Sequence record: OR061068
Origin: Escherichia phage CR01
DNA length: 45,236 bases
Strand: one strand, 5' to 3'
Made by a program: the position numbers and the translations under genes. This document shows, piece after piece, positions 387 through 44,578 of this stretch. The number at the start of each line of letters is the position of its first letter. Position 1 is the first letter of the stretch. The notes beneath the pieces were generated by a model, which did not search any database, had not been told where the DNA came from, and worked only from the letters and a program-made list of their open reading frames with translations.

Positions 387-416
387 AGCGCCCCGCTTTA
401 AGGCGGGGCTTTACTT
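387..416 (+). terminator. rho-independent terminator-like hairpin
   Basis: Stem GCCCCGC / GCGGGGC with loop TTTAAG followed by a T-rich tract. Confidence 0.4.
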
Positions 417-432
417 ATCGAGAAAGGGAAAC

Positions 433-928: not shown

Positions 929-1009
929 TTGCCTTGCATGTTGGAATAATTTATTCTTGACATGTAAATCCGGGGGCCCGGATTCCAACGTCCAGGGGAC
1001 ATACTGACT

Positions 1010-1711
1010 ATGAATCGTTTTTTACGTTATCCGTTCCAGGAAGAAGCTGGAGCAGAAGATAAAGCCGGTGGCGGTGACGCGCCGAAAATGTTCACAGCCG
1101 AAGAAGTTCAGGCGCTGATTGAGAAAGAAGTTGCCGGGCTTAAGGCCAATCAGGAAGCATTGCTGGCGGAGAAGAAAGAAGCCGCTCGCAAAGCAAAAGA
1201 GGCTGAAGAAGAACGGCAGCGCGCACACCAGGAGGCGTTAAAAGCCGCTGGTAAGATGGACGAGTTTGAAAAGACGATTCGTAGCCAGTATGACCCGGTG
1301 TTAGCCGAGAAAGATGGTCGCATCTCCAAAATGGCAGAGCGCATCCTCGGCAGCGAACGTAAAGCGGTGTTAGGCTCTTTCGCGGGGGACTTTATTACCC
1401 CGGAAGCAGTGGACATTCTTGCGCCGTTCGTCAAGACTGAGTTCGAAGGCGATGATGTGGTTACTAAGTTTGTCGGCGCAGACGGCAACGTAATCACGAC
1501 TGACCCGGAACAGTTCCGCAAATACCTGCGCGAACACAAAGCGTTTTCGCATTTGATTAAAGCAAATGCAGCTTCCGGCGGCGGGGCTTCCGGTAGCAAA
1601 GGCGGCGGGGCCGCACCAGCGTTTAAAGACATGAGTGAAGCGGAGCGTTTAGCTCTGTATAAATCGAACCCTGCCGAATTTGAGCGGCAACTTAAAGCCC
1701 TGAGGAAATAA
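1010..1711 (+). CDS. putative capsid scaffolding protein
   Basis: 233 aa, highly charged coiled-coil (EAARKAKEAEEERQRAHQEALKAAG), immediately upstream of the major capsid gene. Confidence 0.45.
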   Translation: MNRFLRYPFQEEAGAEDKAGGGDAPKMFTAEEVQALIEKEVAGLKANQEALLAEKKEAARKAKEAEEERQRAHQEALKAAGKMDEFEKTIRSQYDPVLAEKDGRISKMAERILGSERKAVLGSFAGDFITPEAVDILAPFVKTEFEGDDVVTKFVGADGNVITTDPEQFRKYLREHKAFSHLIKANAASGGGASGSKGGGAAPAFKDMSEAERLALYKSNPAEFERQLKALRK

Positions 1712-1713
1712 TA

Positions 1714-2762
1714 ATGGCAATTACTACTATCGGCGATATCGTAACTGGCAACATCCCGGTCCTGGCGTCTTACATGACCGAGGACCCGGTAGAAAAACCG
1801 CGTTCTTCCAGTCTGGTATTCTGACCCCGACTCCATACGCTGCCGAGATTGCCCGCGGCTCGTCCAACATCGCTAACATCCCTTTCTGGAAAGCGATTGA
1901 TACTTCTATTGAGCCTAACTACTCGAACGACGTATACCAGGACATCGCAACCCCGCGTAACGTGCAGACCGGCGAGATGATGGCGCGCGTTGCATACCTG
2001 AACGAAGGCTTCGGCCAGGCAGACCTGACTGTAGAACTGACCAGTCAGAATCCGCTGCAATCCGTAGCGTCCCGTCTGGATAACTTCTGGCAGCGCCAGG
2101 CGCAACGCCGTCTGATTGCTACCGCGCTCGGTCTGTACAACGACAACGTAGCCGCTACCGATGAATACCATACGCAGAACGATATGGTTATCGACGTGTC
2201 TGCTTCTCTGGGCTTCGACGCTGGCGCATTCATCGACGCTACCCAGACTATGGGCGATGCGCTGATGGGCAACGGCGGTGAAGTGCTGGGCGCTATCGCG
2301 ATGCACAGCTTCGTTTATGCGCAGGCGCGTAAGCAGCAGCTTATCGACTTCATCAAAGATGCTGACAACGACACCCTGTTCGCCACCTACCAGGGCTACC
2401 GCGTGATTGTTGACGACAGCATGACCGTAGTTGGCTCCGGCTCGAGCCGTAAGTTCATCTCCATCATCTTCGGCAACGGCGCTATCGGTTACGGTGAAGG
2501 TAATCCGTCCAACCCGCTGGAATACGAGCGCGAAGCATCTCGCGGTAACGGCGGCGGCGTTGAAACCCTGTGGACCCGTAAGACCTGGTTGCTGCACCCA
2601 CTGGGCTACAGCTTCACCAGTGCGGTAATCACCGGCAACGGCACCGAGACTGTAGCCCGCTCTGCTTCCTGGCAGGACCTGGCGAACGCCTCCAACTGGA
2701 ACCGTGTTGTTGAACGTAAGCACGTACCTATTGCCTTCCTGGTAACTGGTGTCGGTGCTTAA
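1714..2762 (+). CDS. major capsid protein, interrupted by an apparent frameshift near the N-terminus
   Basis: ATG at 1714 reads MAITTIGDIVTGNIPVLASYMTEDPVEK then hits a stop at 1822; the -1 frame is open from ~1794 to 2762 (track ORF 1962..2762); A5 run at 1793-1797; followed by a terminator. Confidence 0.6.
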
Positions 2763-2777
2763 GGTTAAGCTATAATC

Positions 2778-2802
2778 GAGAGGGACTTCGGTCCCTCTTT
2801 TC
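2778..2802 (+). terminator. rho-independent terminator after the capsid gene
   Basis: GAGAGGGAC-TTCG-GTCCCTCTTTTC hairpin plus T-run. Confidence 0.6.
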
Positions 2803-2823
2803 ATTTACTAAGAGGATTCCTAA

Positions 2824-3384: not shown

Positions 3385-3537
3385 ATGAATATCGTGCGCC
3401 GCTTGCTCTGTACCCACAAATACCGAACGGTAAGAGTCGCGTATGGTGACGAGATAATTGGTAGAAATTACAAGCGATATTGCCAAGAGTGCACAAAATG
3501 CGGCGCAATCAGATACGTGGGTGGTGATAAATGTTAA
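3385..3537 (+). CDS. hypothetical small Cys-rich protein (50 aa, zinc-ribbon-like)
   Basis: CTHK...CQECTKC...C arrangement; start overlaps the preceding stop region. Confidence 0.3.
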   Translation: MNIVRRLLCTHKYRTVRVAYGDEIIGRNYKRYCQECTKCGAIRYVGGDKC

Positions 3538-4039
3538 TTGTAGAAACAGGTCAAATTGTAGATGGGGCCGATTCGTACATCTCGCTAGCTGACGCCCGCG
3601 CGTTAGCGGCTAATTATGGCCTTGAGTTACCTGCCGACGACCCCGCGGCGGAAGTAGCTCTGCGCAACGGTGCTACTTATGTCGGGCTTGCAGAACCACA
3701 GATGTGCGGCCGCCGTGTGTCGGCCGAACAGTCTCTTGCATACCCTCGCACGGGGTAACATTGAATGGCTTCCCTGTAGCTAACAACACCATTCCGAAAC
3801 AGGTGATTCTTGCGCAGGTAATCGCAGCCGCTACATATGGCTCCGGCACAGAAGTGCGGGCTAACTCGGACGGTCGCTCCGTGCAGACTGAGCGTGTCGA
3901 GGGTGCGGTCACAGTGACGTACTTCAACAACGGCAGCAGTGGCGCTACGACCGCGATTACCGCCGCTGACGACGCCTTACGCCCGTTACTGTGTGGTGGT
4001 CTTAACAATGGCTTCTCATTTAATGTGTACCGGGGTTAA
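3531..4039 (+). CDS. head-tail connector-like protein, frameshifted at G-run 3752-3755
   Basis: Track ORFs 3531..3758 and 3704..4039 join in one frame if one G is added to GGGG; N-terminus ISLADARALAANYGLELPADDPAAEV resembles gp6-like head-tail connector proteins. Confidence 0.4.
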
Positions 4040-7225: not shown

Positions 7226-7252
7226 TAAGGCCCCGAAAGGGCCTTTTTCTTA
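7226..7252. terminator. bidirectional rho-independent terminator
   Basis: AAGGCCCCGAAAGGGCCTTTTTC: GC hairpin flanked by A-run upstream and T-run downstream; lies between convergent genes 6050..7222 (+) and 7250..7804 (-). Confidence 0.65.
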
Positions 7253-9035: not shown

Positions 9036-9412
9036 AGTGTAAAGGTTGAGTAGCTTGTCGTCTCGTTTGGTGCGAACGGCTTTAACAGGAGCAACGGGGT
9101 AATCTCCGACTTCATGCCCTCGATTACGGCCTTCATTAACTCGACCTGACGTTCCGCATCGGTGTCGGTCTTAACCCATTGCAGTTTAGTGTTGCCTAAC
9201 TCGTCCACAAGTGACGATGTTCCTTTAATCTTGTAGCCATCTGGCACAAGGTGGCTAACGTCCCGCCCGTGGCCTACGCCTTTCTTAGCCAGCTTCGCTT
9301 TACGGATGCGAATAACGCGGTCTGAGATGCCGTATTTACGGGCGATGTCGATATTCTTCATACCGGCGTTCAATTCTTCCTGTAACTGTTCGTCGGTTAT
9401 TTTCTTCCGGGC
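8972..9412 (-). CDS. HTH DNA-binding protein (N-terminal part of a probable HTH-metallophosphoesterase fusion)
   Basis: ATG 9412 with ribosome-binding site GAGGAAG; HTH-like DEQLQEELNAGMKNIDIARKYGISDRVIRIRKAK; the C-terminal 20 residues look non-native; adding one C at C-run ~9096-9099 joins this frame to the phosphoesterase. Confidence 0.45.
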   Translation of the reverse strand, partial: ARKKITDEQLQEELNAGMKNIDIARKYGISDRVIRIRKAKLAKKGVGHGRDVSHLVPDGYKIKGTSSLVDELGNTKLQWVKTDTDAERQVELMKAVIEGMKSEITPLLLLKPFAPNETTSYSTFTLCLISISVCWHGPTRAAMTGI

Positions 9413-10750: not shown

Positions 10751-13054
10751 TACGGCTTCCCTAATTGCCAGAGTAAAAACAGAAGGCGCCGACGTAGCCG
10801 CCAAACAGCTTGACGCTATGGCGGCATCCGCAGACCGGGCGGATACCGCGGTAAACAAGCTGACTCCGGATGTCAATAAAGTTAACACAGCTACCTCTAA
10901 AGCAGCCTCTGACGGTTTCGCTAAGTTCCGTAACGCCGCCGGGCAGGTGGGCTTCCAGGTACAGGACATGGTTGTCCAGTTGCAGTCCGGCACGTCTGCA
11001 TTCGTAGCAATCGGGCAACAAGGCTCGCAGCTTGCAGGTGCTTTCGGCCCCGGTGGCGCGGTGCTCGGGGCTGTAATTGCTCTTGCGTCTGCTGTTGGCG
11101 GCGTCCTGTACAAATCGCTAACCGAAGCCGAAGGTAGTTCAAAAGACCTCGAAACCGCACAGAAACAGTTAAAAGATACTTTCCAGCAAACGGCATCTGG
11201 CTCTCTCGAACTGACAGACGGCCTCATCCAGCTTACCCAAATAAGCCGAGAAGCGGCAGAGACTCAGCTTGCTCTGGCTAAGGCTAACGCGGACCTTATC
11301 GCGCAGCAAACAGCTAAAGCTGTTCGTGAGGACGCAGAATCATGGGAAACGTGGAAAGCCTCCACGGCGTCGGCGATTAGCCAGTACGATGCACTGGTCT
11401 CTAAGGGTGCGGATGTAGGCGACACGTTAGAAAAACTAGGCGGCACTTACGAGGGTAACATCGTAGGCGTCAACATGCTGGCGCAGAATATCGCGGAGCT
11501 TAGCAGTAAGTTCGGGGTTAACCGTGACCAGGCGCTGGAGATGATAGCGGCGCAGAGCGCGTTTAACAAAGAGCCAACCGCGGAGAATGCCCGCCGCATC
11601 GCCGATGTGTTTACCGACTGGCTGGGTAACACAAAACAGTTGAACCCGGAGCTTATCCGCCTCACCGATAATGCCAACAAGAACGCCACGGCACTGGAAA
11701 ACGCAGAGAAGTCAGCAAACGCGGCGGCAGAGGCCCAAAAGAATCTTGGTCGTAACGTCAACTCAACCACGCAGAGATTCCAGGAACAGAACGAAGCTAT
11801 CGTCAAGAATCAGCAAATTGCCATCTTAAGCGACCGTGAGCGCATCAGGGCGCAAGCTGAGATGGATAAACAAGCGTTCGCTAAACGTGAAGCTGTCACC
11901 AAAGAACAGATCGCCGCGTATAATGCCGCTCGTGACACGGAAGCACAGCAAGACATCGCCCGCATCGACGCTACCGAAAAAGCGAAGGCAGACCGTGAGG
12001 CTAAATCGAACGAGAAACGTCTGGCGGCGCAGGCCAAACGTGAAGAAACGGCGGCACAACGCCAGAAGAAAGCTGCGGAAGATTTCCTCGCTACGGTTGA
12101 CCGTACAACCGGAGATGAAATTTCTCGCATCACGGCGGCCGAAGAGCAGAAACTGGCGAAACTTGAAGAGTTCAACCGCGCCGGAACGATAAGCCAGCAG
12201 CAGTACGAAAACGCCAAAACTCAGATTATGCTCACAGCTGAGCAGGCCAGACAGGAAGAACTGGATAAGAAAAGAAAAGAGCAGCAGGAAAAGCAGCAGA
12301 AAGGCGAGGACTTCATGGCGCAGATTATGGGTCAGAATGCTGCCGAGCTTGAGCTTCTTGACATCCAGGAACAGCAAAAGCTGGCGGTCGCGGATAAGTA
12401 CCGAGAACAGGGGCTTATTAGCGAGAAGCAGTATCAGGCCGCGCTTAACGCCATCAACGAGCAGTACGCCACGAAGCGTGCCGACGCAACGGCAACCGCC
12501 TTCGGTAACATGGCTTCAAACATCGGTTCGGCTTTGGGGAGGCTTCCGGCGCGTACAAGGCATTCGCTATCGTACAGGCCACTATAGCCACATACACAGC
12601 AGCTATTGAGGCTTATAAGTCAACGGCCGCTATCCCTGTAGTTGGCCCGTTCCTGGCCCCCGTAGCCGCTGCCGCTGCCGTTGGGGCGGGTATGGCGCAG
12701 GTTTCCGCTATCCGGTCCGCGCGTGAACAGGGCGGACAGTTATCCGCAGGGCAGGCTTCCACCATCGCTGAACGCGGTAAACCCGAAGTTATCATGCCCG
12801 CTGGCGCATCGCGTGTGCGCACCGCGCAGCAGATGAAAGAAATTATGGGGCAAAACGGGTCTTCTTCCGGCCCGTCTAATGTTACTATCGTAAACAACAC
12901 GAGTTCTCAAATCGGCAACGTATCCACTGAGCAAGATGATGAAGGCCGTCTACGCATCATCATCGAAGAGCAAGTGGCCGCCTCTTTGCAGAACAGTAAC
13001 AGTAAGATTAGCAAGGCCCGCAAGGCCACAAGAAACGCGCCGGGGTTTAAATAA
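10743..13054 (+). CDS. tail tape measure protein, frameshifted at G-run ~12536-12539
   Basis: Long Ala/Gln/Glu-rich coiled-coil ORF 10728..12587; the C-terminal frame 12692..13054 joins if one G is added to GGGG; fused reading gives a hydrophobic Ala/Gly-rich segment. Confidence 0.7.
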
Positions 13055-14444
13055 TGAGCGACTTATATTTCCCACGTAGCCTTAAGCCTATTGTGTCGAA
13101 AGGCTACTCAATGACCAGACGCAACAACGTCTGGAGTGTCGATTTAGCCGGTGGCGGAGTGCGTCAAGGCCGTGACACGTATTATGATGTGTTCCCAATA
13201 AGCGTAACCCTGATTACATCCGCAATGGGGCGGCAGGCGTTTCTGTCGTTCCTCGAGAAAGTCGATGGTGGCGCGTCAAGTTTCTGGATGGCGCACGACT
13301 TCGGCATGGGTATTGAGGATTATCAAGTCACCATTACATCCACCGTCGCCGAGTCCACCGAAGACGGGATTAACTGGACAATTACTTTCACGGCAACCGC
13401 TGAGAAATCACCGTTCCAGGACCTTGAGAACCAGTGTCTGATTAACAATCTGCCAGATTTGTATGGCTGTTATGGTGATTGCCTGGGCAGTTTCCTGAAA
13501 ATATACGCGAACTATGAAACGACGTTCCCGCGTATCTGGAGTGACGAAGGCCCCGCCGGTTATCCGCCGATTAACCTTCTGGCGTCGACTCTTGATAGCC
13601 GCATTGTGTATGACGGGCCACAGGTTTACTACATCAACAGAAATGGCAATCTTGTGCAGTCCGCCGCCAATGAATGGCCTCTTACGTTCATTGATGGTGT
13701 TGCGGTTGGGCGAGTTCCTCCTGAAAATGCTGCAGAAAATATAATAATTGAGTCTTCAAACATAACTGATGCGTCGTGGGATAAGCAGAGGACAACAGTG
13801 AGCTATGACGGAAGCCTGGTTTTATCTTTCGCCGTTACCCCAGATGAAAACACGGGCGTCCACACCATTAATCAGACAGTTCATGCGCAAATTCTAGAAG
13901 GTGAAAAATACACATTCAGTGTTTTTTTAAGGCTAATGGGTATAATTTTGCCAGGCTCCGCGCGGCAAATCAGGATACTACGCACATCTCTTCCGCGATA
14001 GTAGACCTCACATCCGGGACTATTGTCGATGGCGAAGCATATTCCACAATAACATCTATAGGAGGCGGATGGTATCGAGTTACTGAAACTATAACGGCAC
14101 CACCCGGCGGGTTTGACGGCCTCAATCTGTCGATGTGGATTTACGAAACAGCAACAATATCATCGTTTCCAGGGGATGGGGTTAGTGGCATTCTCGCATC
14201 CACTCCACAAATAGAAAAAACAGAGTTCTCCACGTCCCCAATAGTAACTGAATCGTCATCAGTAACACGCCCATCCGCAGGTGCAAAAGTAGCAATGAAT
14301 GGCGCAATAAGCATCGACATAACCTATTCCGACGGCTCTGTGGTAAACGTTCAGGCTGTTGACGGTTATGCCGCCATCCCCCAAGCGGATTCTTCGTGGG
14401 GCAGTAAATACATCACTCGTATCGACTTTAATGTGGGCGGTTAA
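13054..14444 (+). CDS. minor tail protein (distal tail protein-like), frameshifted at T-run 13922-13928
   Basis: Track ORFs 13054..14001 and 14133..14444 join in one frame when one T is added to the T7 run. Confidence 0.4.
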
Positions 14445-17886: not shown

Positions 17887-19332
17887 ATGTCAAGCGGATG
17901 CGGTGACGTTTTAAGCCTGGCGGATTTACAGATCGCCAAAAAACACCAGATTTTCGAAGCCGAGGTTATCACAGGTAAATCCGGCGGGGTTGCTGGGGGC
18001 GCGGATATTGATTACGCGACCAATGCTGTTACGGGTCAGGCACAGAAAACGCTACCTGCTGTGTTGCGCGACGCTGGCTTTTCTCCCGTGTCGTGGGATT
18101 TCTCAACCGGCGGAACGTTAACAGTTAACGACCGCGATAAAGTTGTCTATGACCCTGTAAGTAAAACATGGTACTCGTACTTGGGAACACTACCGGTTAC
18201 GGTTCCAGCGGGTTTTAATCCTGTTGGCAACGCAGACTGGAGACCGCAGACAGACCCGGATTTGCGTACGGAGTTAGGGTCCGCCCAAGGTGCCGATATG
18301 ATCGGACTCCCGCAAGGTGGTACTGTGGCGCAAGGGGTAGATGTGGTAACGCCCGCTATGTTTGGCGCTATTGGCGACGGCGTTGCAGATGACTCAGTTG
18401 CAATACAGGCCGCAATGGATTATTGCCAGATTAACAATAGAAAGCTAGTCATTCCATCCCGGCGCTATCGAATCACCAAGCCATTGCTATATCGCAACCA
18501 GGGATTTTATAACTATGAGATTGAAGGGCACGGAGGTGCTGCTGTACTTATCATGGATTCTCTGGAAAAAACTGGAATTACCGCACCTGATGCCTTTGGC
18601 GATGATTTTAACGTTAACGCCGCGATGGTAGTTCTGAATGACACTAACCAGAGTAAGTATTGCCGCATTAGTGGATTGCGCTTCGAATCACCAGTTGGTG
18701 CTGAATACGCTATTTATGTTGGGCAAACCGAGAATAGCTATATCCATGACTGCTTTTTTACTGGGTTCACATTTGGATGGTACGACATTGGATCATGGAT
18801 ATGCCGGATAGAGCGATGTGTCGCGCGCAGTATTGTAGATACTGGTTTTTTCAAGAAGACTGGGACGAGTACTAATATCAGTGAATGCTATGCGGACCAG
18901 ATGGAGCGAGGGTATTATTTAGGCGGTGGGTATTCGTCGATAGTAAATTGCGCATGTGATAAGACCACGCGCTGGGGTTATTACTTTAAAGGCGGCCCTG
19001 CAGGAACCGATTTAGCTACGTTCAGTATGAAAGGGTGCGGCTCAGAGCAATCAGGTGCAGATTCAGTATTCTACGTGGACGGCTTGGTTTCGCTAAGCAT
19101 AGAAGACCATAACGCGTTCAACGATCCTTCTTTATCCGCCGCGCCAGCTGCATTACTTAGCATGGCTTCGAATACATCATATTCACAAGTTGTGCTGAAA
19201 AATATTAGAACAGTAAATGTAGATACATTAATTTTGGATGCTGCTGACCATAATTATTTTGATTTAACAAACGTCACATGTCGTAGCGCCATGTCTAAAG
19301 AGTTTTACTTAGGAGTAATTCAAGAGTTTTAA
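17887..19332 (+). CDS. tailspike / tail fibre with pectate-lyase-like beta-helix domain (candidate polysaccharide depolymerase)
   Basis: 481 aa; motif FGAIGDGVADDSVAIQAAMDYC typical of pectate lyase-3 / beta-helix glycosidase folds used by phage depolymerases. Confidence 0.55.
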   Translation: MSSGCGDVLSLADLQIAKKHQIFEAEVITGKSGGVAGGADIDYATNAVTGQAQKTLPAVLRDAGFSPVSWDFSTGGTLTVNDRDKVVYDPVSKTWYSYLGTLPVTVPAGFNPVGNADWRPQTDPDLRTELGSAQGADMIGLPQGGTVAQGVDVVTPAMFGAIGDGVADDSVAIQAAMDYCQINNRKLVIPSRRYRITKPLLYRNQGFYNYEIEGHGGAAVLIMDSLEKTGITAPDAFGDDFNVNAAMVVLNDTNQSKYCRISGLRFESPVGAEYAIYVGQTENSYIHDCFFTGFTFGWYDIGSWICRIERCVARSIVDTGFFKKTGTSTNISECYADQMERGYYLGGGYSSIVNCACDKTTRWGYYFKGGPAGTDLATFSMKGCGSEQSGADSVFYVDGLVSLSIEDHNAFNDPSLSAAPAALLSMASNTSYSQVVLKNIRTVNVDTLILDAADHNYFDLTNVTCRSAMSKEFYLGVIQEF

Positions 19333-19341
19333 AAAGGACGT

Positions 19342-21820: not shown

Positions 21821-22313
21821 GCCTTGAACTCCCCGAAGTATATTTCCGCGGCTCTTTGGTATACGCGCGACGCTTCTTCTATAGTATCAAAATAGCCAAG
21901 GTGGATGTATTTGTTATTGACGCCTATTCTGGCGCGCCACCTGCCAGAGGATATTTGGTAAACCCCTATCGCGCCGCTAGTGTTATGTGATGAGCAGTCT
22001 CGGTTCTGAATCTGCTGGCTCCTGGCTGCTGGCCTTATATTATTTATGGCGTTATTAGCCCTGTTACGGTCTTTATGGTCAAGCTCACCGTTATGATATT
22101 CTCCGTAGACGAAAGCCCATGCCAGATGGTGGGCTTTTATTCTTACACCGGAGACTGTAATAACTATGTATCCTTTGTCGTTTGGCCCTCCGGCTACCTC
22201 CCCGCATTTCTCCCTTTAATGCTTACTTTTCGTGTAAATATACCTGTTTCGGGGTCATAGTTAAGAAGACGTTTCGCCTCCTCAATATCAGGCCTTCTTG
22301 TTAATTTGTTCAT
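21817..22313 (-). CDS. HNH homing endonuclease with AP2-like DNA-binding domain, frameshifted at C-run 22200-22203
   Basis: Not in the ORF track because it is split; N-terminal MNKLTRRPDIEEAKRLLNYDPETGIFTRK, then after adding one base KAHHLAWAFVYGEYHNGELDHKDRNRANNAINNIR (HNH) and GVYQISSGRWRARIGVNNKYIHLGYFDTIEEASRVYQRAA (AP2-like); ATGA overlaps with both neighbours. Confidence 0.6.
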
Positions 22314-22531: not shown

Positions 22532-22831
22532 CTAACTATAATAGCTCGCTATTAGGTCGTCAACCTGTTTAAACGAACCAACGACAAAAACATTAGCACC
22601 GCGTTTACACATCCGCTCATGCTCCCGTAACTGGTGCGGGTCTGGCTTCGTGTTTTCGTCTTTCTTCACCTCGACGAACCAGATGATGCCACCAGGGAGA
22701 ATTGCCAGCAGGTCGGGGGCGCCGGAACGTCCTTCGTAGGAGAGCTTACGAACGAGGCCCCCAATGGCCTCGAATCGGTCTTTGCGTATTTCTGAATCTT
22801 GCCTTCCGGGGTCACAGCAAAGGCTCCGCAT
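22532..22831 (-). CDS. VRR-NUC domain nuclease
   Basis: About 99 aa from ATG 22831; motif RSGAPDLLAILPGGIIWFVEVKK (PD...E-x-K). Confidence 0.5.
   Translation of the reverse strand: MRSLCCDPGRQDSEIRKDRFEAIGGLVRKLSYEGRSGAPDLLAILPGGIIWFVEVKKDENTKPDPHQLREHERMCKRGANVFVVGSFKQVDDLIASYYS
22534..22562 (-). promoter_or_regulatory. sigma70-like promoter with operator palindrome
   Basis: Reverse complement TTGACG-ACCTAATAGCGAGCTAT-TATAGT; contains AATAG-N5-CTATT. Confidence 0.45.
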
Positions 22832-23209: not shown

Positions 23210-25409
23210 TTACTTAGCATAACGTTTTAACTCCTGACCTTCCGCTACAAGAGGGAACCCCTCGGCCCACTCCGGCAACGCACACATTAATTTTTCCAGT
23301 TCAGCCACCGTGTACTCAGGTGTGTCCGGAGTTTCACACACTAATTCATCGTGTACCGAAAGCACGATGGGGTACCCGCCGCCCTCAACATTAATCATCG
23401 CATATGCGAGCAAATCACGGCACAGCGCCTGAACAATGTTTTCGCAGGCTTTGCCGCCGTGGGTGTACAGGGTAGTCCATTGGCGGGTTAACTGGTTTTC
23501 ACCCTGATACTTGATTCGCACATTCGTGTTTACCCGTCCGTCTTCGTCTGTTTCCTTTGTCACACTAACGCCGATTCCCGGATACGAGAGGATGCGACCC
23601 GACGGCAACTCCATACACAACCACCAACCAGGAACCTTCCTGCCGGATGAATCAAATTCTACAGTACGCCATATGCGGATAGCACGCTCGCCATTCTTGC
23701 GCAGATGCGCCCCGCCCAAAATTCACGACCAGGATTACGAACAGCAGCTAAAATTCCGTCTTTAAGGTCGCGCCAGAAAGCTACTGTTTCAGGGTGGGAC
23801 TCCCGCCACATACGCTTGATAGCGTCGCAGGTACGCCACACTTTCTTATCAAGAATATACGATGGTCGGTCATCCTTTTCACCGGGATGTGGCGGTCGCT
23901 TTGCTTCCTGAATACGCGCCCACTCATACCCACGTGCGGTAGCAGCCCAGATGTGGTCGGGGAAAGTCCCGTCCATTGTTTTTGCCATCTCAATAAGGTC
24001 AAGACCTAAGTTTTTAGCAAACGTAACGAACGCTCCGACGCCCCCTCATAGCCGAGGCCAAGCTCGCAAGCCTTGCCTATCTGTCTGATTTCCTTGAAGT
24101 TTTTCTTAATATCATCTGGGTCCATGCCAAACATCTTACCCGCGGTTACACAGTAAATATCCAACCCGGCGCGGAACGTATCAAGCGCGGTTTCCTCCCC
24201 AGCCAGCCACGCAAGCCCGCGACCTTCAACGTTAGAGTAGTCAGCAACAACAAACTTATGCCCTTCTTCCGGTATGATGCAGCTACGCACAGTAGATGCC
24301 GTCAGTTTTGCCACATCGAAACGGCGATGCGCTCGGCCCTTAAGTAACGCTGAAATGCCTTTATCCAGTTCATCATCGTGATAGTACCCGCGTGCGAGAT
24401 TCTGCGGCTGGAAGCCTTTACCCGCCCATCGCAGAGTACGTTTTGCCCCGCCATACTGTAAACAACCGCGACGGCGGTCGTCCGACGAGCGGCCTAACAG
24501 CAGCGGGTTATATTTCGTTGATGCGGTGGACGCGGCCCCGAGGCGCATTTCGATAATCGTGCGGGCGTCGTCAGGTAAATCATCGTCCGCCAGCAGGTCA
24601 TGAAGCGTTGACTTCTGCGCGTTGTGGATGCGGTGCGCGGGGGCGAGTTCACGCAGAATCGGCAGAAAGTCTTTACCGGTAAGCGAGCCGCCGTATTTGC
24701 GTTGGGCTTCTTCCTGTAACTGTGCCTTGTGCTTCTCCACGGCTTCAATCGCGGCTTCCGCCAGTGCAACGTCAACCTTAAACCCACGGTCATTGATTAA
24801 CTGGTCAAGTTCCAGTACACGGTCCTCGAACTCGGAGTTACCCCAACGCGGCAGCTTATGAAAGACTTCACGCATCGCGGTGATGTCGCTCACGGCGTAC
24901 TTGATGAACAGCGCCCACTCGTCCGGGTGTGTTTCGGCGGTGTAACGGCGGATTTTGTAGTTCTTCGGTGTAGGTTTGGAGAAACGCTGAATCAGCGCCT
25001 TGCCGCGTTTATCTTTCGCGTTGTCCGCGGATACACACAACACTTCGCACAATGCATCGAGCGACCCCGGCAGCGCGTGGCGAAACGCCCAAATCATCGT
25101 ATCAATGGTGTTGCTTACCGGAATATCAAAGCCCCAGCAGTGCTTCATGATGAGCCTGTCGAACATTGAGCCGTTGTGCCACACCATCTTAATGCGGCTG
25201 TTCGGCTTAACCAGACGGCGTAGTGCGCGGTGCAAATCACCCGGCATGTCGCTGCTGTCGGTGCAATCCCATACCTGCACAGGCTCGTCGTCAAAAGCAT
25301 AGGTACAGATTAGCACTTCGGTAGTTGGGTGTTCGGCATAAGCGTAGGAGCCGACTTTCTTTAAATCGGCTTCGGAGAATGTTTCAAAGTCCAGGTATAA
25401 GTAGCTCAT
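23210..25409 (-). CDS. family A DNA polymerase with 3'-5' exonuclease domain, split by two homopolymer frameshifts
   Basis: N-terminal exonuclease motif LYLDFETFS; pol motif B-like RQIGKACELGLGYEG; motif C SVHDELV; frame changes at C5 run 24041-24045 and C4 run 23710-23713 are each repaired by adding one base. Confidence 0.8.
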
Positions 25410-27533: not shown

Positions 27534-27663
27534 GGCAGCTTTGCCGGACGTGTTAGGAATATCTTTTCACAGGCCAGTGATGCACTGCACGCCAGCCACT
27601 TTTTAGCACCTGACGGCGATAGTAATGCGTGCACATCGTTATTGCCGCCGCGTTCTTTTAGAA

Positions 27664-29741: not shown

Positions 29742-29757
29742 CGCCCCTTTCTTTTAC

Positions 29758-32014
29758 CTACTCCAAATCCTCCTCTGTCACCACCAGCATTTCATTCGGT
29801 TCGTATATTGTCTTCGGCCTTAATCTGTCCCCCATCTTTTCGGGTATCCGGTATGTGCCGGGGACAACTTCACCGTTAACATCACATCCGAGCATCAACT
29901 CCCCGTCTTTCAGCATCTTCTCGAGATGATGGTTGGTGATGGCGTGGTCCCCCGAGTTCGCCACTATCTGCCGTTGGGTAAAACCTCGTCCGGTGTCGTC
30001 GGACTGTTGCAGGTCTTCCAGCGCGGCGAGTATTGATTCCTTACGCCCTTCATCCTTCCCGCGTTTTACAGCATTATTTACGTTTTCTTTACCTTCTTTA
30101 GTTAACCCTTCTTCCCGCTCCTTCTCCTCGTCAGTTTTGAACGGCTCGAAGCCCCACGGCATCAGCACAAGCGCCTTGTGCGGCTCAGGCAGATCGAGGT
30201 TTACGATTGTGCCGTATTCCTCTGTGCTACCGAGGAACTCAACCGCACGGTATTCTTTCGGAGGCGGGGCTTCACGGAACTGTACCGACTCCAGAACCAT
30301 GCCAACCGTTTTCTGTTGAGGCCCATGCTTAAATTTCGAGTGGTATACGTTTATCTGGCGGCCGGTAGCGCGCTCAATTGTCAGCTCCACATCAACACCG
30401 GCATACAGCGCCCCGCTACCACGGGCTTTCTTTCCACCCTTAGGCGTATGGTGGACGACACCCACAGCGGCTTTAGTTGCGTCGCGTACTTTTTAAGGAT
30501 GGCGATAACTTTACCCATGCCAATTGCAGTTGATGAACTGTTCTCGTCGAACTTGTCAATTGTCAGGGCCAGCGTCTGGTTGAGGGTATCGAACGCGACC
30601 ATACCAATAGGCTCGTCCCCTGCAGCTTCACGCATCCTGCGGATTAGCGCGGGGATTTTTTATCACCATGCGCGGCGAGCACCTCACCCATATCAATGAC
30701 ATGTACGTAATCTTTACCTTCCTCGCCGTATTTAGCCGCGAGCGCGTCAATACGTGTGCGTGTAGCTGCGCCTCCCTCACCGTCGATATAGAAATGGTGG
30801 CAACGCTGGGTATCCGCCCCGGCAAACCGGTATCCGGCGGCGCTCAGGTACATCATCCCCAGCGTATAGAACGATTTGTACGTGCCGGATTCCCCAACAA
30901 TATCCCAGATACAATCTGACGGCATGTACCCCTCAACGACGAAATCAGCCTTTACCGGTTCCGGTAGCTCGTCCTCTTCTGAGTCATCATCGTCTTCCAG
31001 GTCGTCGAGGCTGCATGAAACAGATTCACGCGCACCCCATCCGATAGCCCCGGCGACTTCACTGAACGGCAGCCCAGTCGCATCACACGCGTATTTCCAC
31101 ACCTCTTTCGGCGACATGCCTTCGGTTGCCGTGATGTCGGTGTCGTGAATCATCGTTACGTTCGGCGCTTCATATCCCTCGCGCGGGAAGCATAGCAGGA
31201 AGTCGTCCGGACGCGGCGTCGGGTCGCTGTAGTTCTCTGCGTGTTCCGGTGTAGCTGGCATTTTTAGTCCGCGCGGCGTCATGATGCCACCGTACTCGAA
31301 CGCCAGTGCCTCAAACGCATCAGTAAACGCAGTGCGCAGTTCTTCCGGTATCTGGTAGTCAGATGCGCTGCTGATGTCAACGGCTGGGACGCCTTCCAGT
31401 AACTCATCAGGGTCAATCAGGTCGTTGCGGCGCGACCAGATAACAGTAGAGCCAACTGGCGGCAGGTACATCGGCTGCGACAGAGTGAACCCGCTGCGGT
31501 CCGCGCCCATGCCTTTGAAGAAGTGCTCCAGTAATCCATGGCGAACACGGATGATGTCGCCACCTTCAACCGGGCGGGCCAGCGGCATGACGACGCGAAA
31601 GCGCGGCGACTCGTCGGTATGTGATGCCGTGGTGTAGAGACACATCGCCTGGCGGCTGCGCTTAACCAGGCGCACCGCTTCCTGATACTCTTCCGGCGTT
31701 GTGCTGTCGAAGTCCAGGTACGCCAGCGACGATTTGCTTACAGACGCATCACAGCGATAGAAGAAGCCTTTGCGCGCCTGCTTAAAGTCACCGGTTTCCG
31801 GGTCTTTTACGGTGCTGTGCGTAGAGTCGCACGCGGCAGTGATATACCCCGGCGCGGTCTTAGGGCTAATCCCGTCACGAACGGCATCGAGCGGCTGGAT
31901 TAACTCTTTCAGGTCGTCCAGTGTTGCCGTGTGGGTAGTTCTGACGTTTATATCCTTTTTCTCTGCCCGCGCGTTGCGACGTGACCACGAGTAGGATAAA
32001 ATTACATCGGACAT
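29758..32014 (-). CDS. DNA primase-helicase (primase-like N-domain plus RecA/DnaB-like C-domain), split by two homopolymer frameshifts
   Basis: N-domain LAYLDFDS (DxD-type); P-loop-like GESGTYKS; C-region VVHHTPKGGKKARGSGALYAG resembles the DnaB H4 motif; frame changes at T6 run 30656-30661 and T5 run 30490-30494 repaired by adding one base. Confidence 0.6.
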
Positions 32015-32302
32015 GTTGTATATTCCTTAAGCAAGTAATTTGGCCTCGGCGTTCACCGCGTCGGGGCTTTCTTTTATTCCAGGTCTTCTAAAGTAGCGGT
32101 CATTCCGCGAACTTCGGCAACAGCACTATATTTCCCGCCAACATTTTTCACGACACCAGATTTAACCAGTACCTTCAACGACCCTTCAATAATGGCGGAA
32201 CTATAGTACCTAAAATAACTACGGCGCAAGTCCATAACGCTGCACGACCCTTTTTACAGGTTAATGAAACGACTGCCGTAAATACGCGGGACTGGAACTC
32301 GG

Positions 32303-37913: not shown

Positions 37914-37944
37914 TCCCGGCCCTGACCCAGCCGGGATTTTTTTA
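37914..37944 (+). terminator. second rho-independent terminator
   Basis: TCCCGGCCCTGACCCAGCCGGGATTTTTTTA. Confidence 0.55.
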
Positions 37945-39568: not shown

Positions 39569-39840
39569 TTGAGTTTGATGATGTTTTATTTGAGGAATAC
39601 CGCGGAACGGTGTTTTTGACTGTGATGTACGGTGTTTACTCAAAGTCCTTTAACGGGTTTTCGAAAGCAGATTGCATAAATCAATTACTGCAATGGGTGG
39701 TAAGCCGAAAATAGCCACACCACAAGCCCTCTACGGAGGGCTTTTCTGTACATCCCGCCCAATCCCCTTATATAATCCCTTTAGACGCGTAGGGCGCGTC
39801 TGGTGCGCTCTGATGGTCAGACGCATATGCAAGGGATTCT

Positions 39841-40386: not shown

Positions 40387-41631
40387 GTATTCAGCTATCC
40401 GCGCCACAGGCACTGTTCCTGAATTGCGATAACAAGTACAAAGCCTATGTCGGCGGCTTCGGTAGCGGCAAGACATTCGTCGGATGTCTCGACCTGCTTA
40501 CGTTTATGCTCAAGCACCCCGGTACGCGCCTGGGCTACTTCGGCCCGACATACCCGGCCATACGTGACATCTTCTACCCGACATTCGAGGAAGCGGCTAA
40601 CCTGCTTGGCCTTGATGTGCTGGTTAAATCCGGCGACAAAGAAGTCGTTGTAACTCGCGGTAAGACTGTGCTCGGGACCGTTATCTGCCGTTCTATGGAT
40701 AACCCCGGCTCGATAGTCGGCTTCAAAATCGCGGCTGCGGTCGTGGATGAGCTGGACGTATTGAGCCGTGAGAAAGCCGAGCTGGCGTGGAACAAAATCG
40801 TAGCCCGCATGCGTCTGGTTATCCCGGGGTAATTAACCACATCTCCGTCACCACGACTCCGGAAGGGTTCAAGTTCGTTTACGCCAAGTTCAAGGAGAAC
40901 CCGACGCCGAGTTACTCAATGGTGCAGGCGTCCACTCACGAGAACGCCAGATTCCTGCCGCCGGATTACATTAGCTCGCTGACTGAGACTTACCCGGCGC
41001 AACTGATTAACGCGTATCTGAACGGTGAGTTTGTCAACCTGACATCCGGAAGCGTGTATTACGCATACGACCGACGCAAGCACCGCAGCAAAGAGACAAT
41101 TCAACCGGGCGACACGCTGTACATCGGGCAGGACTTCAACGTTACGAAGAACGCCAGCGCCGTGTATGTGCAGCGTAAAGATGGATGGCACGCGGTTGCA
41201 GAACTGAAGGGCCTGTTCGATACGCCGGACACCGTGCGCGTAATTACCGAGAAGTGGAAGTCACAAGGCCACCGCATCGTCGTTTACCCCGACGCTAGCG
41301 GCAAGAACCGTAAGACAAACTCGGCGTCAATCTCTGATATTGCATTACTCCAGCAGGCGGGTTTCGATGTTCGCGCTAAATCAGCCAACCCCCGGTTAAA
41401 GACCGCGTTTTAGCCGTGAACACCGCGCTGGAAAAAGGTAAGCTGTGGGTTAATGACCACTTATGTCCTGAGATAGCCAAGACGCTGGAACAGCAGGCAT
41501 ACGACGATAACGGAGAGCCGGCTAAAGACGGCGTCATTGACCATATGGCTGATGCTCTCGGCTATCCTGTAGTTTATGAGATGCCGGTGGTTAAACCAGT
41601 AATCAACATCCCGGTGACTTTCGCACTTTAA
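40383..41631 (+). CDS. terminase large subunit, split by two homopolymer frameshifts
   Basis: Walker A VGGFGSGKTF and Walker B AAVVDELD; three successive frames (40383..40832, 40787..41413, 41416..41631) join when one base is added at G-run ~40826-40829 and C-run ~41388-41392. Confidence 0.75.
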
Positions 41632-41643
41632 GAGGATTATTAA

Positions 41644-43112
41644 ATGTTAACTATGAACGGTCAGAATCAGGGTGTTAAGACAAAACACCGGGAATGGCTG
41701 CATCACTTCGATAAATGGCAGAAGGTGCGCCACGCACTGGAGGGCGACCTTATCCGCTATCTGCGCAACGTCGGGAAGAACGAGCCGGACCCGACCTACG
41801 CGGCACAGCGCCAGGAAGAATACGAGAACGGGGCTATCTGCTATAACTTCACCAAGCGCACCCTGGCGGGGATGGTTGGGTCGGTGATGCGCAAAGACCC
41901 CGAACAGATTATTCCGCCTGAGCTTGAGTACCTGTTACGTAACGCCGACGGTTCTGGTGTCGGGCTGTGGCAGCACGCGCAGGATACTTTGATGGAGATT
42001 GACTCGGTGGGCCGTGGCGGGTTGCTGGTGGACGCCCCGGAGACAGCCGCGGCAACGGCGGCAGAACAGAACGCGGGGCTATTAAACCCGGTCATTGCAT
42101 TCTATACCGCAGAGAACATCATAAACTGGCGACTGACCCGCGTTGGTTCAGTTAACCGTGTGACGATGGTCGTGCTGCGTGAGGTGTGGGAATACTCGGA
42201 ACCGGGCGCAGAGTTCGAAACAAAGTTCGGTGAGCAATACCGCGTTCTCGATTTGATTGATGGTCGCTACCGCCAGCGCATTTACCGCTTCGATGCCGAA
42301 GGTGGTGCGCAGGGTGAAGTAATCGAAATATTCCCTGAACTTGGTGAACAGTTGCGCGGCAAAATCCCGTTCACGTTCATTGGGGCGAGCAACAACGACG
42401 CCACTATAGACGATGCACCTTTGCTGCCGTTGGCTGAGCTCAATATCGGACATTTCCGCAACAGCGCGGACAATGAGGAGTCCAGCTTCGTTGTAGGGCA
42501 GCCCACCCTGTTCATTGCCCCAGGTGAGAACATGAGCATGGAACAGTGGAAAGAGGCCAACCCTCACGGCGTCCGCACGGGGTCGCGTTCAGGCCACAAC
42601 ATTGGTTACGGCGGCAATGCGTTTCTGGTTCAGGCAGGGAGAACAACCTCGCCAAACAGAACATGCTGGATAAAGAGAATCAGGCGATTCAGATTGGTGC
42701 GCAGCTTATCACCCCGACGCAGCAAATCACCGCTGAATCGGCCCGTCTGCAACGTGGTGCTGATACTTCAGTTATGGCAACAATCGCACGTAACGTAAGC
42801 ATGGCGTACACTGATGCGCTGCGCTGGGTGGCTGCGATGCTTGGGCTGCGTGAAGGCACAGAGATTGAGTTCAAGCTGAATATGGAGTTCTTCCTGCAAC
42901 CGATGACCGCTCAGGACCGTGCTCAGTGGATGGCGGATATTAACGCGGGTCTGTTACCGGCTACCGCTTATTATGCTGCGTTGCGCAAGGCAGGTGTAAC
43001 TGACTGGACGGACGAGGACATTCAGAACGCTATTGAGGACGCACCTCTGCCGTTGGGTGCTGTTACTCAGGTGGCTGGAGAGATTCCGCAGTCGGCGCAA
43101 CAACAGGAGTAA
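41644..43112 (+). CDS. portal protein, frameshifted at G-run ~42637-42639
   Basis: Track ORFs 41644..42798 and 42546..43112 join with one added G; position between TerL and the head morphogenesis gene. Confidence 0.6.
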
Positions 43113-43535: not shown

Positions 43536-44578
43536 ATGAGCTTACTTACATCCCTAATCAGCCACCAGATATGGCTACAACGCGCCGCATCCGGTGAAGT
43601 GAAAGACCTCGCACCGTTTATTAAGGAGATGCGGGACGAAATCAAACGGCAGGTGCTGTTATTCGGCGACGACGGGCGAAGCACTGCGCGACTGAATAAA
43701 CTGTTACGCGACCTCGAAGAAGCACTGACAGGGCTTACAGGTGACTGGCAAACAAAGCTGACAGAAGACCTTAAGGAACTGGCGGCGTATGAGGCGGAGT
43801 GGAACGTAAAGGCACTGACCGCCAACGTAGACGCGGAGTTTGTTACACCTACCGCCGAACAGGTGTGGGCTGCTGCCGAGTTTCAACCGCTCTCATTGAG
43901 CGACAAGCCTGTTGATTTCTCTAAGCTGATGACCGGCTGGGGCGAAACAGAAGTCGAGCGCCTGGTAACCGGCGTTAAGATGGGCTTTGTACAAGGCCAA
44001 ACCACACGGCAGATTGTTAAGAATGTCGTAGGCGCTGGCGGACTGGCCGACGTCTCTGAGCGTAACGCCGCTACCGTCATCCGCACCGCGCTGTCCCACG
44101 TGTCTAACGAAGCCCGTAACGAGACGTACCGCCAGAACGAAGACATCATCGAGAAGTACGAGTGGGTGTCGACGCTAGACAGCCGTACCAGTACGATTTG
44201 CAGAGCCAGAGACGGAATGACGTGGGAAATCGGTAAAGGGCCAATGCCCCCGCCCATCCGAACTGCCGGTCGTGCACGGCTCCGGTAATCAGTTCAGAGT
44301 TCGATTTCCTGGATAAAGGTGCAAAGCGAGCGGCTAAAGGTGCGGACGGCGGTACTCAGGTAAGCGCAGACACCACCTATTACGAGTTCCTGAAGCAACA
44401 ACCGTCGTGGTTTATCGATGAAGCGCTCGGCCCGGTGCGAGGCAAGATTTTCCGTAACAGCGGTATATCACCGGAAGAGTTTCGCGTAATATCTGTAGAT
44501 GGTTTCGGGAATCCGCTGACGCTTAAGCAGATGGCGGAACTCGATAAACGTGTTGCTGATTATCTGAAAGGGGAATAA
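43536..44578 (+). CDS. head morphogenesis protein (phage Mu F-like), frameshifted at C-run ~44247-44255
   Basis: ATG 43536 with ribosome-binding site AGGAGGG; adding one C gives MPPPHPNCRSC, the PPxHxNCRC signature of Mu F / SPP1 gp7 family proteins, and extends the frame to 44578. Confidence 0.6.

What the first reader, a model, noticed from the sequence alone, without database searches (positions are those of the whole stretch)
1790..1800. At least 15 single-base homopolymer frameshifts break essential genes; probably sequencing errors
Major capsid (A5, 1793-1797), head-tail connector (G4, 3752-3755), HTH-phosphoesterase (~9096-9099), tape measure (G4, ~12536), minor tail protein (T7, 13922-13928), tailspike-associated ORF (~19440), HNH endonuclease (C4, 22200-22203), DNA polymerase (C4 23710-23713 and C5 24041-24045), primase-helicase (T5 30490-30494 and T6 30656-30661), TerL (~40826 and ~41388), portal (~42637) and the Mu F-like protein (~44253) each change frame at a homopolymer. 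Every one is repaired by adding one base to the run, and the repaired products recover conserved motifs (for example PPxHPNCRC). A systematic undercall of homopolymer length, typical of pyrosequencing, semiconductor or nanopore data, is the simplest explanation; a viable phage cannot carry all of these. Gene calls made on the raw sequence will fragment these proteins.
Basis: seen in the sequence. Interest (0 to 1): 0.5.

Follow-up and report, generated by a model that had tools for sequence, protein, structure and literature searches.

The report
Nanopore homopolymer errors fragment phage genes
The broken genes are real in the sequence but are nanopore consensus errors, one base lost from short runs of the same letter, in an unpolished assembly of a viable E. 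coli phage (CR01), so this is a data-quality problem and not biology.

Summary
The window is a complete Kagunavirus genome. Every break is a net loss of one base at a run of identical bases. Six more one-base deficits lie between genes, and there is no one-base excess anywhere.

- **Repair:** adding one base per site restores full-length products that match relatives in length (capsid 349/349, polymerase 733/733, helicase 752/752, TerL 416/416), with no internal stops.
- **Selection:** codons downstream of the breaks show the same purifying-selection signature as codons upstream.
- **Run length:** the break rate rises steeply with run length, from 0.1% of 3-mers to 9% of 5-mers, 43% of 6-mers and the single 8-mer.
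- **Provenance:** length (45,236 bp), GC content, a 481-aa "tailspike" and exact RAST coordinates identify the window as Escherichia phage CR01 (OR061068; Sci Rep 2023;13:23040). It was sequenced only on MinION (SQK-LSK109), basecalled with Guppy and assembled with Flye, with no short-read polishing reported. The phage is plaque-purified and has a burst size of 117.

The feature is an artefact, not a defective genome and not recoding.

The parts
1793..1797 (+). A5 run in the major capsid gene (1714-2762). Relatives have A6. Frame 1 to 3.
   Evidence: The A5 allele is in 0 IMG/VR contigs and the A6 allele in 10. RAST split the gene into 1714-1824 and 1977-2762.
3752..3755 (+). G4 run in the head-tail connector gene (3531-4039). 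AMO has G5; other relatives have CGGTG. Frame 3 to 2.
9096..9099 (-). G4 on the + strand (C4 in the gene's sense) in the HTH-metallophosphoesterase gene (9415-8289). M01, UTEC10 and BUCT825 have 5.
   Evidence: Metallophos match
12536..12539 (+). G4 run in the tape measure gene (10743-13054). M01 and AMO have G5. Frame 3 to 2.
   Evidence: repaired length 770 aa, same as Bas76 and M01
13922..13928 (+). T7 run in the 463-aa minor tail gene (13054-14444). Ivi has ATTTTTT (8 positions). M01 and AMO share the same T7.
19312..19313 (+). GG in the tailspike gene (17887-19721). M01, AMO and UTEC10 have GGG. The break truncates the 611-aa product to the published 481 aa.
22200..22203 (-). C4 on the + strand in the HNH homing endonuclease gene (22313-21820). 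fFiEco03 has C5 and TUMS_E19 has CCCCA. Shared with M01.
   Evidence: HNH_3 match
22781..22783 (-). T3 on the + strand in the VRR-NUC-type nuclease gene (about 22815-22535). Four clean relatives have T4. Shared with M01.
23710..23713 (-). C4 on the + strand in the family A DNA polymerase gene (25409-23213). fFiEco03 has C5.
24041..24045 (-). C5 on the + strand in the DNA polymerase gene. UTEC10 has C6; fFiEco03 and TUMS_E19 have CCTCCC. Shared with M01.
   Evidence: The DNA_pol_A match runs through the repaired site.
27564..27567 (-). T4 on the + strand in the DUF2800/PD-(D/E)XK nuclease gene (27667-26430). All four relatives have T5.
   Evidence: DUF2800 matches residues 13-402 after repair.
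30490..30494 (-). T5 on the + strand in the primase-helicase gene (32014-29761). BUCT825 has T6; others have TTCTTT.
30656..30661 (-). T6 on the + strand in the primase-helicase gene. BUCT825 has T7.
   Evidence: AAA_25 matches residues 349-528, across both repaired sites.
32251..32255 (-). T5 on the + strand in the 77-aa replication protein gene (32306-32077). UTEC10 and BUCT825 have T6. Shared with M01.
40826..40829 (+). G4 in the large terminase gene (40383-41631). Relatives have GGGTG or GGTG. Frame 3 to 2.
   Evidence: RAST split the gene into three CDS.
41389..41393 (+). C5 in the large terminase gene. UTEC10, BUCT825 and AMO have C6. Frame 2 to 1.
   Evidence: Terminase_6N and Terminase_6C matches are continuous after repair.
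42637..42639 (+). G3 in the portal (DUF4055) gene (41644-43112). M01 and BUCT825 have G4. Frame 1 to 3.
44247..44251 (+). C5 in the Mu F-like minor capsid gene (43536-44578). BUCT825 has C6 and UTEC10 has CCCCCT. Repair restores PPAHPNCRSC.
426..428 (.). Intergenic G3 in the ribosome-binding region upstream of the 433 ATG. All eight relatives carry one more base (GGGG or GGAG).
972..976 (.). Intergenic G5 upstream of the scaffold gene. Relatives have GGGTGG or G6.
7239..7241 (.). G3 in the right arm of the terminator hairpin after the tail tube gene. The left arm is GGCCCC and the right arm GGGCC. All relatives have GGGGCC.
29752..29755 (.). Intergenic T4 in a terminator T-tract. All four relatives have T5.
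37937..37943 (.). Intergenic T7. BUCT825 has T8 and UTEC10 has T9. Shared with M01.
39833..39835 (.). G3 in the ribosome-binding region of the small terminase gene. All four relatives have G4.

Best explanation
The window is the deposited nanopore-only assembly of the viable lytic Kagunavirus Escherichia phage CR01. R9.4.1-generation reads (SQK-LSK109, Guppy) systematically under-report the length of runs of identical bases. Because the bias sits in most reads, high coverage (248x) and Flye's own polishing do not remove it, so the consensus keeps a one-base deficit at a subset of runs. In coding sequence each deficit shifts the frame, so gene callers split or truncate the gene: RAST gave 95 features against 72-77 in clean relatives.

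- **Shown:** the deficits, their uniform direction, their dependence on run length, the restoration of full-length conserved proteins by adding one base, the sequencing method, and the phage's viability.
- **Inferred:** the true run length at each site. No reads were available.
For: 1. **Break census.** 18 coding breaks, all net -1. UTEC10, BUCT825 and the repaired window have none.
2. **Intergenic sites.** Six more one-base deficits and no excess. One leaves a terminator hairpin with arms GGCCCC and GGGCC.
3. **Run-length dependence.** Break rate by true run length is 3: 0.1%, 4: 0.5%, 5: 9%, 6: 43%, 7: 50%, 8: 1 of 1. For 15 of 18 in runs of 5 or more, p = 2.5e-27.
4. **Repair.** Adding one base per site gives ORFs equal in length to relatives, with no internal stops: 349/349, 376/376, 770/770, 611/611, 165/165, 733/733, 413/413, 752/752, 416/416, 347/347. 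Single Pfam domains then run through the repaired sites.
5. **Selection downstream.** Downstream of the first break in each gene, 2,790 codons show 103 amino-acid differences against 499 synonymous ones, and 81% of base differences are at codon position 3. Upstream the figure is 78%.
6. **Allele survey.** The capsid A5 allele occurs in 0 IMG/VR contigs and the A6 allele in 10.
7. **Provenance.** The paper reports 45,236 bp, GC 50.9%, 248x, a 481-aa tailspike, and RAST coordinates identical to the window's ORFs. It used MinION SQK-LSK109, Guppy and Flye with four polishing rounds, and reports no short-read polishing.
8. **Viability.** The phage is plaque-purified with a burst of 117 PFU/cell.
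9. **Sister genome.** M01, from the same study at only 21x, has at least 29 breaks, both insertions and deletions. Five of the window's coding sites and one intergenic site show the same deficit in M01, as expected for context-specific systematic error.
10. **Literature.** Homopolymer frameshifts in long-read-only phage assemblies, fixed by short-read polishing, are documented in PMC10438801.
Against: - No reads or independent high-accuracy sequence of this isolate were available, so no individual site is proven erroneous.
- Two sites are very short runs (GG at 19312, T3 at 22781), where homopolymer undercalling is uncommon.
- At six sites some relatives have a different base rather than a longer run, so the missing base is not certain.
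- Six deficits shared with M01 (five coding, one intergenic) could in principle be inherited real alleles in accessory genes (HNH, VRR-NUC). M01 is a draft from the same run and is not an independent witness.
Confidence: 0.97

Rival explanations
1. A few of the 24 deficits are genuine sequence differences of this phage lineage, while the rest are errors. Candidates are the intergenic sites, the HNH homing endonuclease, the VRR-NUC nuclease, and the T7 tract of the minor tail gene (a slipped-strand, phase-variable tract).
For: - Five coding sites (13922, 22200, 22781, 24041, 32251) and one intergenic site (37937) are identical in M01.
- Homing endonucleases are dispensable.
- Intergenic run lengths vary naturally among relatives: T8 against T9 at 37937, and GGGTGG against G6 at 972.
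Against: - The shared set includes the DNA polymerase (24041) and the replication protein, which are not dispensable.
- M01 comes from the same MinION study at 21x and is full of errors, so sharing reflects the same systematic bias.
- HNH and VRR-NUC keep 95-98% and about 90% amino-acid identity to relatives downstream of the break, which gives no sign of decay.
- All 24 deficits go in the same direction.
Confidence: 0.08
2. The frameshifts are real mutations and the sequence represents a defective or decaying phage genome, or a non-viable variant.
For: Taken at face value, the sequence lacks intact capsid, portal, terminase, polymerase, helicase, tape measure and tailspike genes.
Against: - The isolate forms plaques, was triple purified, and has a 15-min latent period and a burst of 117.
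- There are no nonsense substitutions, no insertions and no larger indels in the 13 repaired genes I examined.
- Selection downstream of the breaks is indistinguishable from upstream.
- Decay would not place 15 of 18 lesions in the 1% of bases that lie in runs of 5 or more.
Confidence: 0.01
3. The breaks are decoded by recoding. Either programmed -1 ribosomal frameshifting or transcriptional slippage at the runs yields full-length proteins from the deposited sequence.
For: - All breaks need the same correction (re-reading one base) and sit at runs, where slippage is physically possible.
- 'Correction' of indels by slippage is known at long A/T runs (reviewed in PMC5009743, listed but not read here; otherwise my own knowledge).
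Against: - Relatives encode the same proteins in a single uninterrupted frame at every site, so no frameshift signal is conserved.
- Runs are 2-7 bases and half are G or C runs. This is well below the roughly 9 A/T usually needed for efficient transcriptional slippage (my own knowledge).
- I did not scan the sites for slippery heptamers or downstream stimulatory structures. The one site I examined by eye (capsid, GAAAAAC) is not a canonical X XXY YYZ heptamer.
- Structural proteins such as the capsid need near-stoichiometric full-length synthesis.
Confidence: 0.005

Closest known systems
Systematic homopolymer-deletion errors in Oxford Nanopore R9.4.1 long-read-only assemblies
   Same: - All errors are one-base deletions at runs of identical bases, and the rate rises with run length.
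- They survive high coverage and long-read polishing, and they split polymerase and tail genes into several annotated CDS.
- PMC10438801 describes the same behaviour for phage genomes, including a polymerase split into three annotations by two homopolymer errors.
   Different: Nothing substantive. Two sites involve very short runs (GGG to GG, TTTT to TTT), and several sit in G/C runs of only 4-5, which is the low end for this error type.
Escherichia phage M01 (OR061069) and vB_Eco_AMO_3701M (PQ474795)
   Same: - These are the nearest records (98% and about 92% nucleotide identity), with the same gene order.
- Both are fragmented by frame breaks: at least 29 and at least 25.
- M01 comes from the same study and platform.
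   Different: - M01 (21x) has both insertions and deletions, mostly at other sites.
- The window (248x) keeps only the systematic deletions.
- AMO has M01's exact length and CDS coordinates, with 3,204 substitutions and no indels, so its breaks appear to be inherited from M01.
Clean Kagunavirus genomes (UTEC10, BUCT825, fFiEco03, NTEC3, Bas76)
   Same: Collinear genomes with 90-100% amino-acid identity in the affected proteins.
   Different: They show no frame breaks in the same census (tested for UTEC10 and BUCT825) and have 72-77 annotated CDS, against 95 RAST features for CR01.
Programmed -1 frameshift in tail assembly chaperone genes (lambda G/GT type)
   Same: The window has the usual chaperone pair upstream of the tape measure gene (9972-10388 in frame 3, 10394-10750 in frame 2). 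This is the one place where a biological -1 shift is expected.
   Different: That arrangement is conserved and 100% identical in amino acids to Bas76. The 18 breaks have no counterpart in any relative.

Membership tests
Nanopore (R9.4.1) homopolymer undercall artefact | Indels are one-sided: bases are missing from the consensus and none are added. | tested here: met
   18 of 18 coding breaks and 6 of 6 intergenic discrepancies are one-base deficits, with no excess.
Nanopore (R9.4.1) homopolymer undercall artefact | Errors lie in runs of identical bases and their frequency rises with run length. | tested here: met
   Rates are 0.1%, 0.5%, 9%, 43%, 50% and 100% for true run lengths 3 to 8; p = 2.5e-27.
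Nanopore (R9.4.1) homopolymer undercall artefact | The sequence was produced from nanopore reads alone, without short-read polishing. | tested here: met
   The window matches CR01/OR061068 in length, GC content and RAST coordinates. Methods were MinION SQK-LSK109, Guppy and Flye with four polishing rounds only.
Nanopore (R9.4.1) homopolymer undercall artefact | Restoring one base gives intact, conserved genes that are still under purifying selection. | tested here: met
   Repaired products have full length, no internal stops, and 81% of differences at codon position 3 downstream of the breaks. Pfam domains are continuous across the sites.
Nanopore (R9.4.1) homopolymer undercall artefact | Raw reads or independent accurate reads show the longer run. 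| not testable with these tools
   Reads are not public; the paper says raw data can be shared on request.
Programmed ribosomal frameshifting or transcriptional slippage | The frameshift site is conserved in relatives, which share the two-frame architecture. | tested here: not met
   Every relative encodes each protein in one frame, with one more base at the site.
Programmed ribosomal frameshifting or transcriptional slippage | A long A/T run (about 9 or more) for transcriptional slippage, or a canonical slippery heptamer with a stimulatory structure. | tested here: not met
   Run-length criterion: runs are 2-7 bases long and 11 of 18 are G or C runs. Heptamers and downstream structures were not scanned; only the capsid site was checked by eye and is not canonical. 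The thresholds are from my own knowledge.
Pseudogenes of a decaying or defective phage | A mixed spectrum of lesions (nonsense, insertions, larger deletions) and relaxed selection after the lesion. | tested here: not met
   There are no stops, insertions or larger indels in the 13 repaired genes, and the pattern of differences is the same downstream as upstream. The phage is viable.
Phase-variable homopolymeric tract (slipped-strand contingency locus) | A long tract in a host-interaction gene whose length varies within a population. | tested here: inconclusive
   Only the T7/T8 tract in the minor tail gene (13922-13928) is a candidate. M01 has the same length and Ivi has ATTTTTT. No population data are available.

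The most novel reading that the evidence does not exclude
The T7 tract in the minor tail gene (13922-13928), identical in CR01 and M01, could be a genuine slipped-strand tract. It would switch the C-terminal 170 residues of a tail-tip protein on and off in the phage population, while all other breaks are sequencing errors.
Probability: 0.03. Interest if true: 0.4.

Novelty: not a real feature. Interest (0 to 1): 0.07.

Why it matters
The breaks tell us nothing new about phage biology. They matter for anyone using this record.

- **Gene calls:** annotation on the raw sequence splits 15 genes. RAST gave 95 features against 72-77 in clean relatives.
- **Published analysis:** the source paper used a 481-aa "tailspike" as a receptor-binding protein for its machine-learning host-receptor prediction. 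That protein is the 611-aa tailspike truncated at the 19312 error.
- **Error propagation:** another GenBank record (vB_Eco_AMO_3701M) carries the exact length, coordinates and frame breaks of the sister draft M01.

The record should be polished with accurate reads, or the 18 coding sites should be treated as frameshift-corrected in any comparative work.

Tried and rejected
- **Source contig lookup.** I searched for the window's own contig through the exact product of the truncated TerL fragment. It returned four unrelated metagenome contigs that happen to end at TerL codon 149. They carry normal GGC/GGT-GT sequence and not the deletion, so this says nothing about provenance.
- **Fetching OR061068.** The record is not in the phage collection. 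I established identity from the paper's text and its supplementary RAST table instead.
- **Six-frame census.** I ran stop-to-stop frames of 17 reference loci against the window to look for further coding breaks. The extra flags were non-coding frames, gene junctions or intergenic indels. No new coding break appeared.
- **Pairwise blastn gap census.** Against the clean references this gave many paired insertion/deletion artefacts in divergent stretches. I kept only gaps supported by two or more references and confirmed them by multiple alignment.
- **First literature search.** A search for Kagunavirus with homopolymer and frameshift returned only general papers.
- **Rejected explanations.** I considered recoding, pseudogenisation and phase variation and rejected them as explanations for the whole set (see rivals).

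Full report
**What the window is.** A megablast search against GenBank phages shows a complete, collinear Kagunavirus (Guernseyvirinae) genome. The nearest records are Escherichia phage M01 (98% identity) and vB_Eco_AMO_3701M (about 92%). Many clean E. coli Kagunavirus genomes lie at 88-94% identity. An ORF that runs across the two ends of the window shows that it is a circularly permuted whole genome.

**Checking the observation.** I translated the annotated CDS of two clean relatives, UTEC10 and BUCT825, and aligned them to the window with tblastn. For regions those two do not cover, I added fFiEco03, TUMS_E19, Ivi and Bas76. The frame changes are always in the direction expected if the window lacks one base: 1 to 3, 3 to 2 and 2 to 1 on the plus strand, and the equivalent on the minus strand.

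- An automated census gave 17 such breaks in the window, all deletions. It gave none in UTEC10 or BUCT825. The eighteenth break (VRR-NUC) fell below the census identity filter but is clear.
- For each break I computed the interval in which the shift must lie, from the stops of the two frames.
- I then aligned the nucleotides with up to eight relatives. In each case the window has a one-base gap at a run of identical bases.

- The tailspike break is at 19312-19313 (GG in the window, GGG in three relatives), not about 19440. It truncates the tailspike itself.
- Multiple alignments also show six intergenic one-base deficits, at 426-428, 972-976, 7239-7241, 29752-29755, 37937-37943 and 39833-39835.
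- One intergenic site sits in a terminator hairpin. Its left arm is GGCCCC and its right arm only GGGCC, while all relatives have GGGGCC.
- No site shows an extra base.

**Is it more than chance?** All 18 coding breaks go in the same direction (p = 3.8e-6), or 24 of 24 with the intergenic sites. After repair, 15 of the 18 lie in runs of five or more bases, which hold 1.08% of the genome (p = 2.5e-27). The fraction of runs affected rises with run length: 0.1% of 3-mers, 0.5% of 4-mers, 9% of 5-mers, 43% of 6-mers, one of two 7-mers and the only 8-mer.

**Are the genes alive?** I inserted one base at each of the 18 sites.

- The repaired genome gives ORFs of the same length as in relatives, with no internal stop: capsid 349/349, phosphoesterase 376/376, tape measure 770/770, tailspike 611/611, HNH 165/165, polymerase 733/733, DUF2800 nuclease 413/413, primase-helicase 752/752, TerL 416/416 and Mu F 347/347.
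- The break census on the repaired genome finds nothing.
- Single Pfam domains run through the repaired junctions: Terminase_6N 22-226, Terminase_6C 248-395, DUF4055 259-398, Phage_Mu_F 147-246, DNA_pol_A 371-476, AAA_25 349-528 and DUF2800 13-402.
- Downstream of the first break of each gene, 2,790 codons differ from the closest clean relative by 103 amino-acid changes and 499 synonymous changes, with 81% of base differences at codon position 3. Upstream, the figures are 135 and 635 over 3,261 codons, with 78% at position 3. The out-of-frame parts are therefore under the same purifying selection as the in-frame parts.
- There are no nonsense mutations, insertions or larger deletions in these genes.
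- The restored Mu F motif reads PPAHPNCRSC.
- A 32-nt exact search of IMG/VR found no contig with the capsid A5 allele and ten with the A6 allele.

**Provenance.** A search for the accession of the nearest record led to Sci Rep 2023;13:23040 (PMC10754912).

- The paper describes the "CR phage" (Escherichia phage CR01, OR061068) as a circular 45,236-bp contig at 248x with 50.9% GC. It is 97% similar to the M phage (M01) and has receptor-binding candidates of 828 aa and 481 aa ("tailspike").
- The window is 45,236 bp with 50.86% GC. Its ORF 17887-19332 encodes 481 aa.
- The paper's supplementary RAST table lists CDS at coordinates identical to the window's ORFs. These include a capsid split into 1714-1824 and 1977-2762, and a terminase split into 40383-40832, 40919-41413 and 41416-41631. 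The window is therefore that record, with the same origin.
- Methods were MinION only, SQK-LSK109, Guppy, Porechop, fastp and Flye with four polishing iterations, annotated with RAST. No Medaka or short-read polishing is reported.
- The phage was triple plaque-purified, with a 15-min latent period and a burst of 117 PFU/cell. The biological phage is fully functional.

**Mechanism.**

- Shown: the deficits, their direction, their dependence on run length, the intactness of the underlying genes, the platform and the phage's viability.
- Inferred: nanopore reads of that generation under-report run length in most reads. The error is therefore systematic rather than random and survives 248x coverage and consensus polishing.
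- This explains the contrast with M01. The window keeps only deletions at runs, whereas M01 at 21x has at least 29 breaks of both signs. It also explains why five coding sites and one intergenic site carry the same deficit in both drafts.
- The behaviour is documented for phage genomes, including a polymerase split into three annotations by two homopolymer errors and corrected only by short-read polishing (PMC10438801).

**Rivals.**

- A defective genome is contradicted by the phage's viability, by the absence of any other lesion type and by normal selection downstream of the breaks.
- Recoding is contradicted by the single-frame architecture of every relative at every site, and by run lengths of 2-7 bases, most of them G or C runs.
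- A mixed picture, in which a few deficits are real, cannot be excluded without reads. Candidates are the intergenic sites, the dispensable HNH or VRR-NUC genes, and the T7 tract in the minor tail gene. I give this about 8%. It would not change the verdict on the set.

**Comparison with known things, and novelty.** This is a standard, well-described artefact of unpolished nanopore assemblies. It is not a biological feature.

**Practical consequences.**

- The annotation is inflated and fragmented.
- The receptor-binding-protein analysis in the source paper used a tailspike that lacks its C-terminal 130 residues.
- Such errors propagate. vB_Eco_AMO_3701M has exactly M01's length and CDS coordinates, 3,204 substitutions biased to third codon positions, no indels, and at least 25 of the same kind of breaks. 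It appears to be a consensus built on the M01 draft.

Noticed in passing
L002 (PQ474795.1) against L001 (OR061069.1), whole length: vB_Eco_AMO_3701M is labelled a complete genome. It has exactly M01's length (45,294 bp) and identical CDS coordinates. It differs by 3,204 substitutions, mostly at third codon positions, and by no indel. It carries at least 25 frame breaks. It looks like a reference-guided consensus built on the error-laden M01 draft, which would mean the indel errors were inherited.
   Followed up: partly
L001 (M01, OR061069.1): M01 comes from the same study at 21x coverage. It has at least 29 frame breaks, 15 insertions and 14 deletions, mostly at sites where the window is intact. 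Its divergence from the window is patchy: 0-1 mismatches in some 1.5-kb bins and 80-127 in others, nearly all at third codon positions. The two are distinct mosaic relatives, or M01 is a mixed consensus.
   Followed up: partly
window, whole genome; PMC10754912: The source paper assigns the CR phage to Myoviridae from TEM (31.6-nm head, 24-nm non-contractile tail). The genome is a Kagunavirus with a tape measure gene, a tail tube gene and no sheath gene among the annotated or matched genes, which is a siphovirus layout. It is 98% identical to the M phage, which the paper calls Siphoviridae. Morphology and genome disagree.
   Followed up: no
window 17887-19332 (and through 19721): The 481-aa 'tailspike' that the source paper used as a receptor-binding protein for host-receptor prediction is the 611-aa tailspike truncated by the 19312 error. 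The C-terminal 130 residues are encoded in the next frame.
   Followed up: yes
window 9972-10388 and 10394-10750: The tail assembly chaperone pair sits upstream of the tape measure gene, in frames 3 and 2, and is 100% identical in amino acids to Bas76. This is the one place where a biological -1 frameshift (lambda G/GT type) would be expected. The first gene ends ...TCG GAA AAG TAA. I did not test for a slippery site or a fusion product.
   Followed up: no
window 1150-1836 and 1770-2804, minus strand: Long antisense ORFs lie opposite the scaffold and capsid genes. They fuse into one 551-codon open frame once the A5 run is repaired. This is almost certainly a by-product of the codon bias of the sense genes, and a reminder that ORF length alone is not evidence of a gene.
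   Followed up: no
L009-L012 (Logan and ENA metagenome contigs): Four unrelated metagenome contigs end within 0-2 nt of TerL codon 149, the same place as the window's first TerL break. They carry the normal sequence there. This is probably a graph branch point where conserved sequence meets variable sequence. It is unrelated to the artefact.
   Followed up: partly
window 3385-3537: A small Cys-rich ORF (about 48 aa, containing CQECTKCG) sits between the 59-aa gene and the head-tail connector gene. It is present in M01 and apparently in one IMG/VR contig (L021), but absent from UTEC10 and BUCT825 at that position.
   Followed up: no
window 200-390: A non-coding stretch upstream of the 433 ATG is conserved in IMG/VR contig L014, with small indels. 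It ends in a hairpin-like GCCCCGC...GCGGGGC terminator. Its function is unknown.
   Followed up: no
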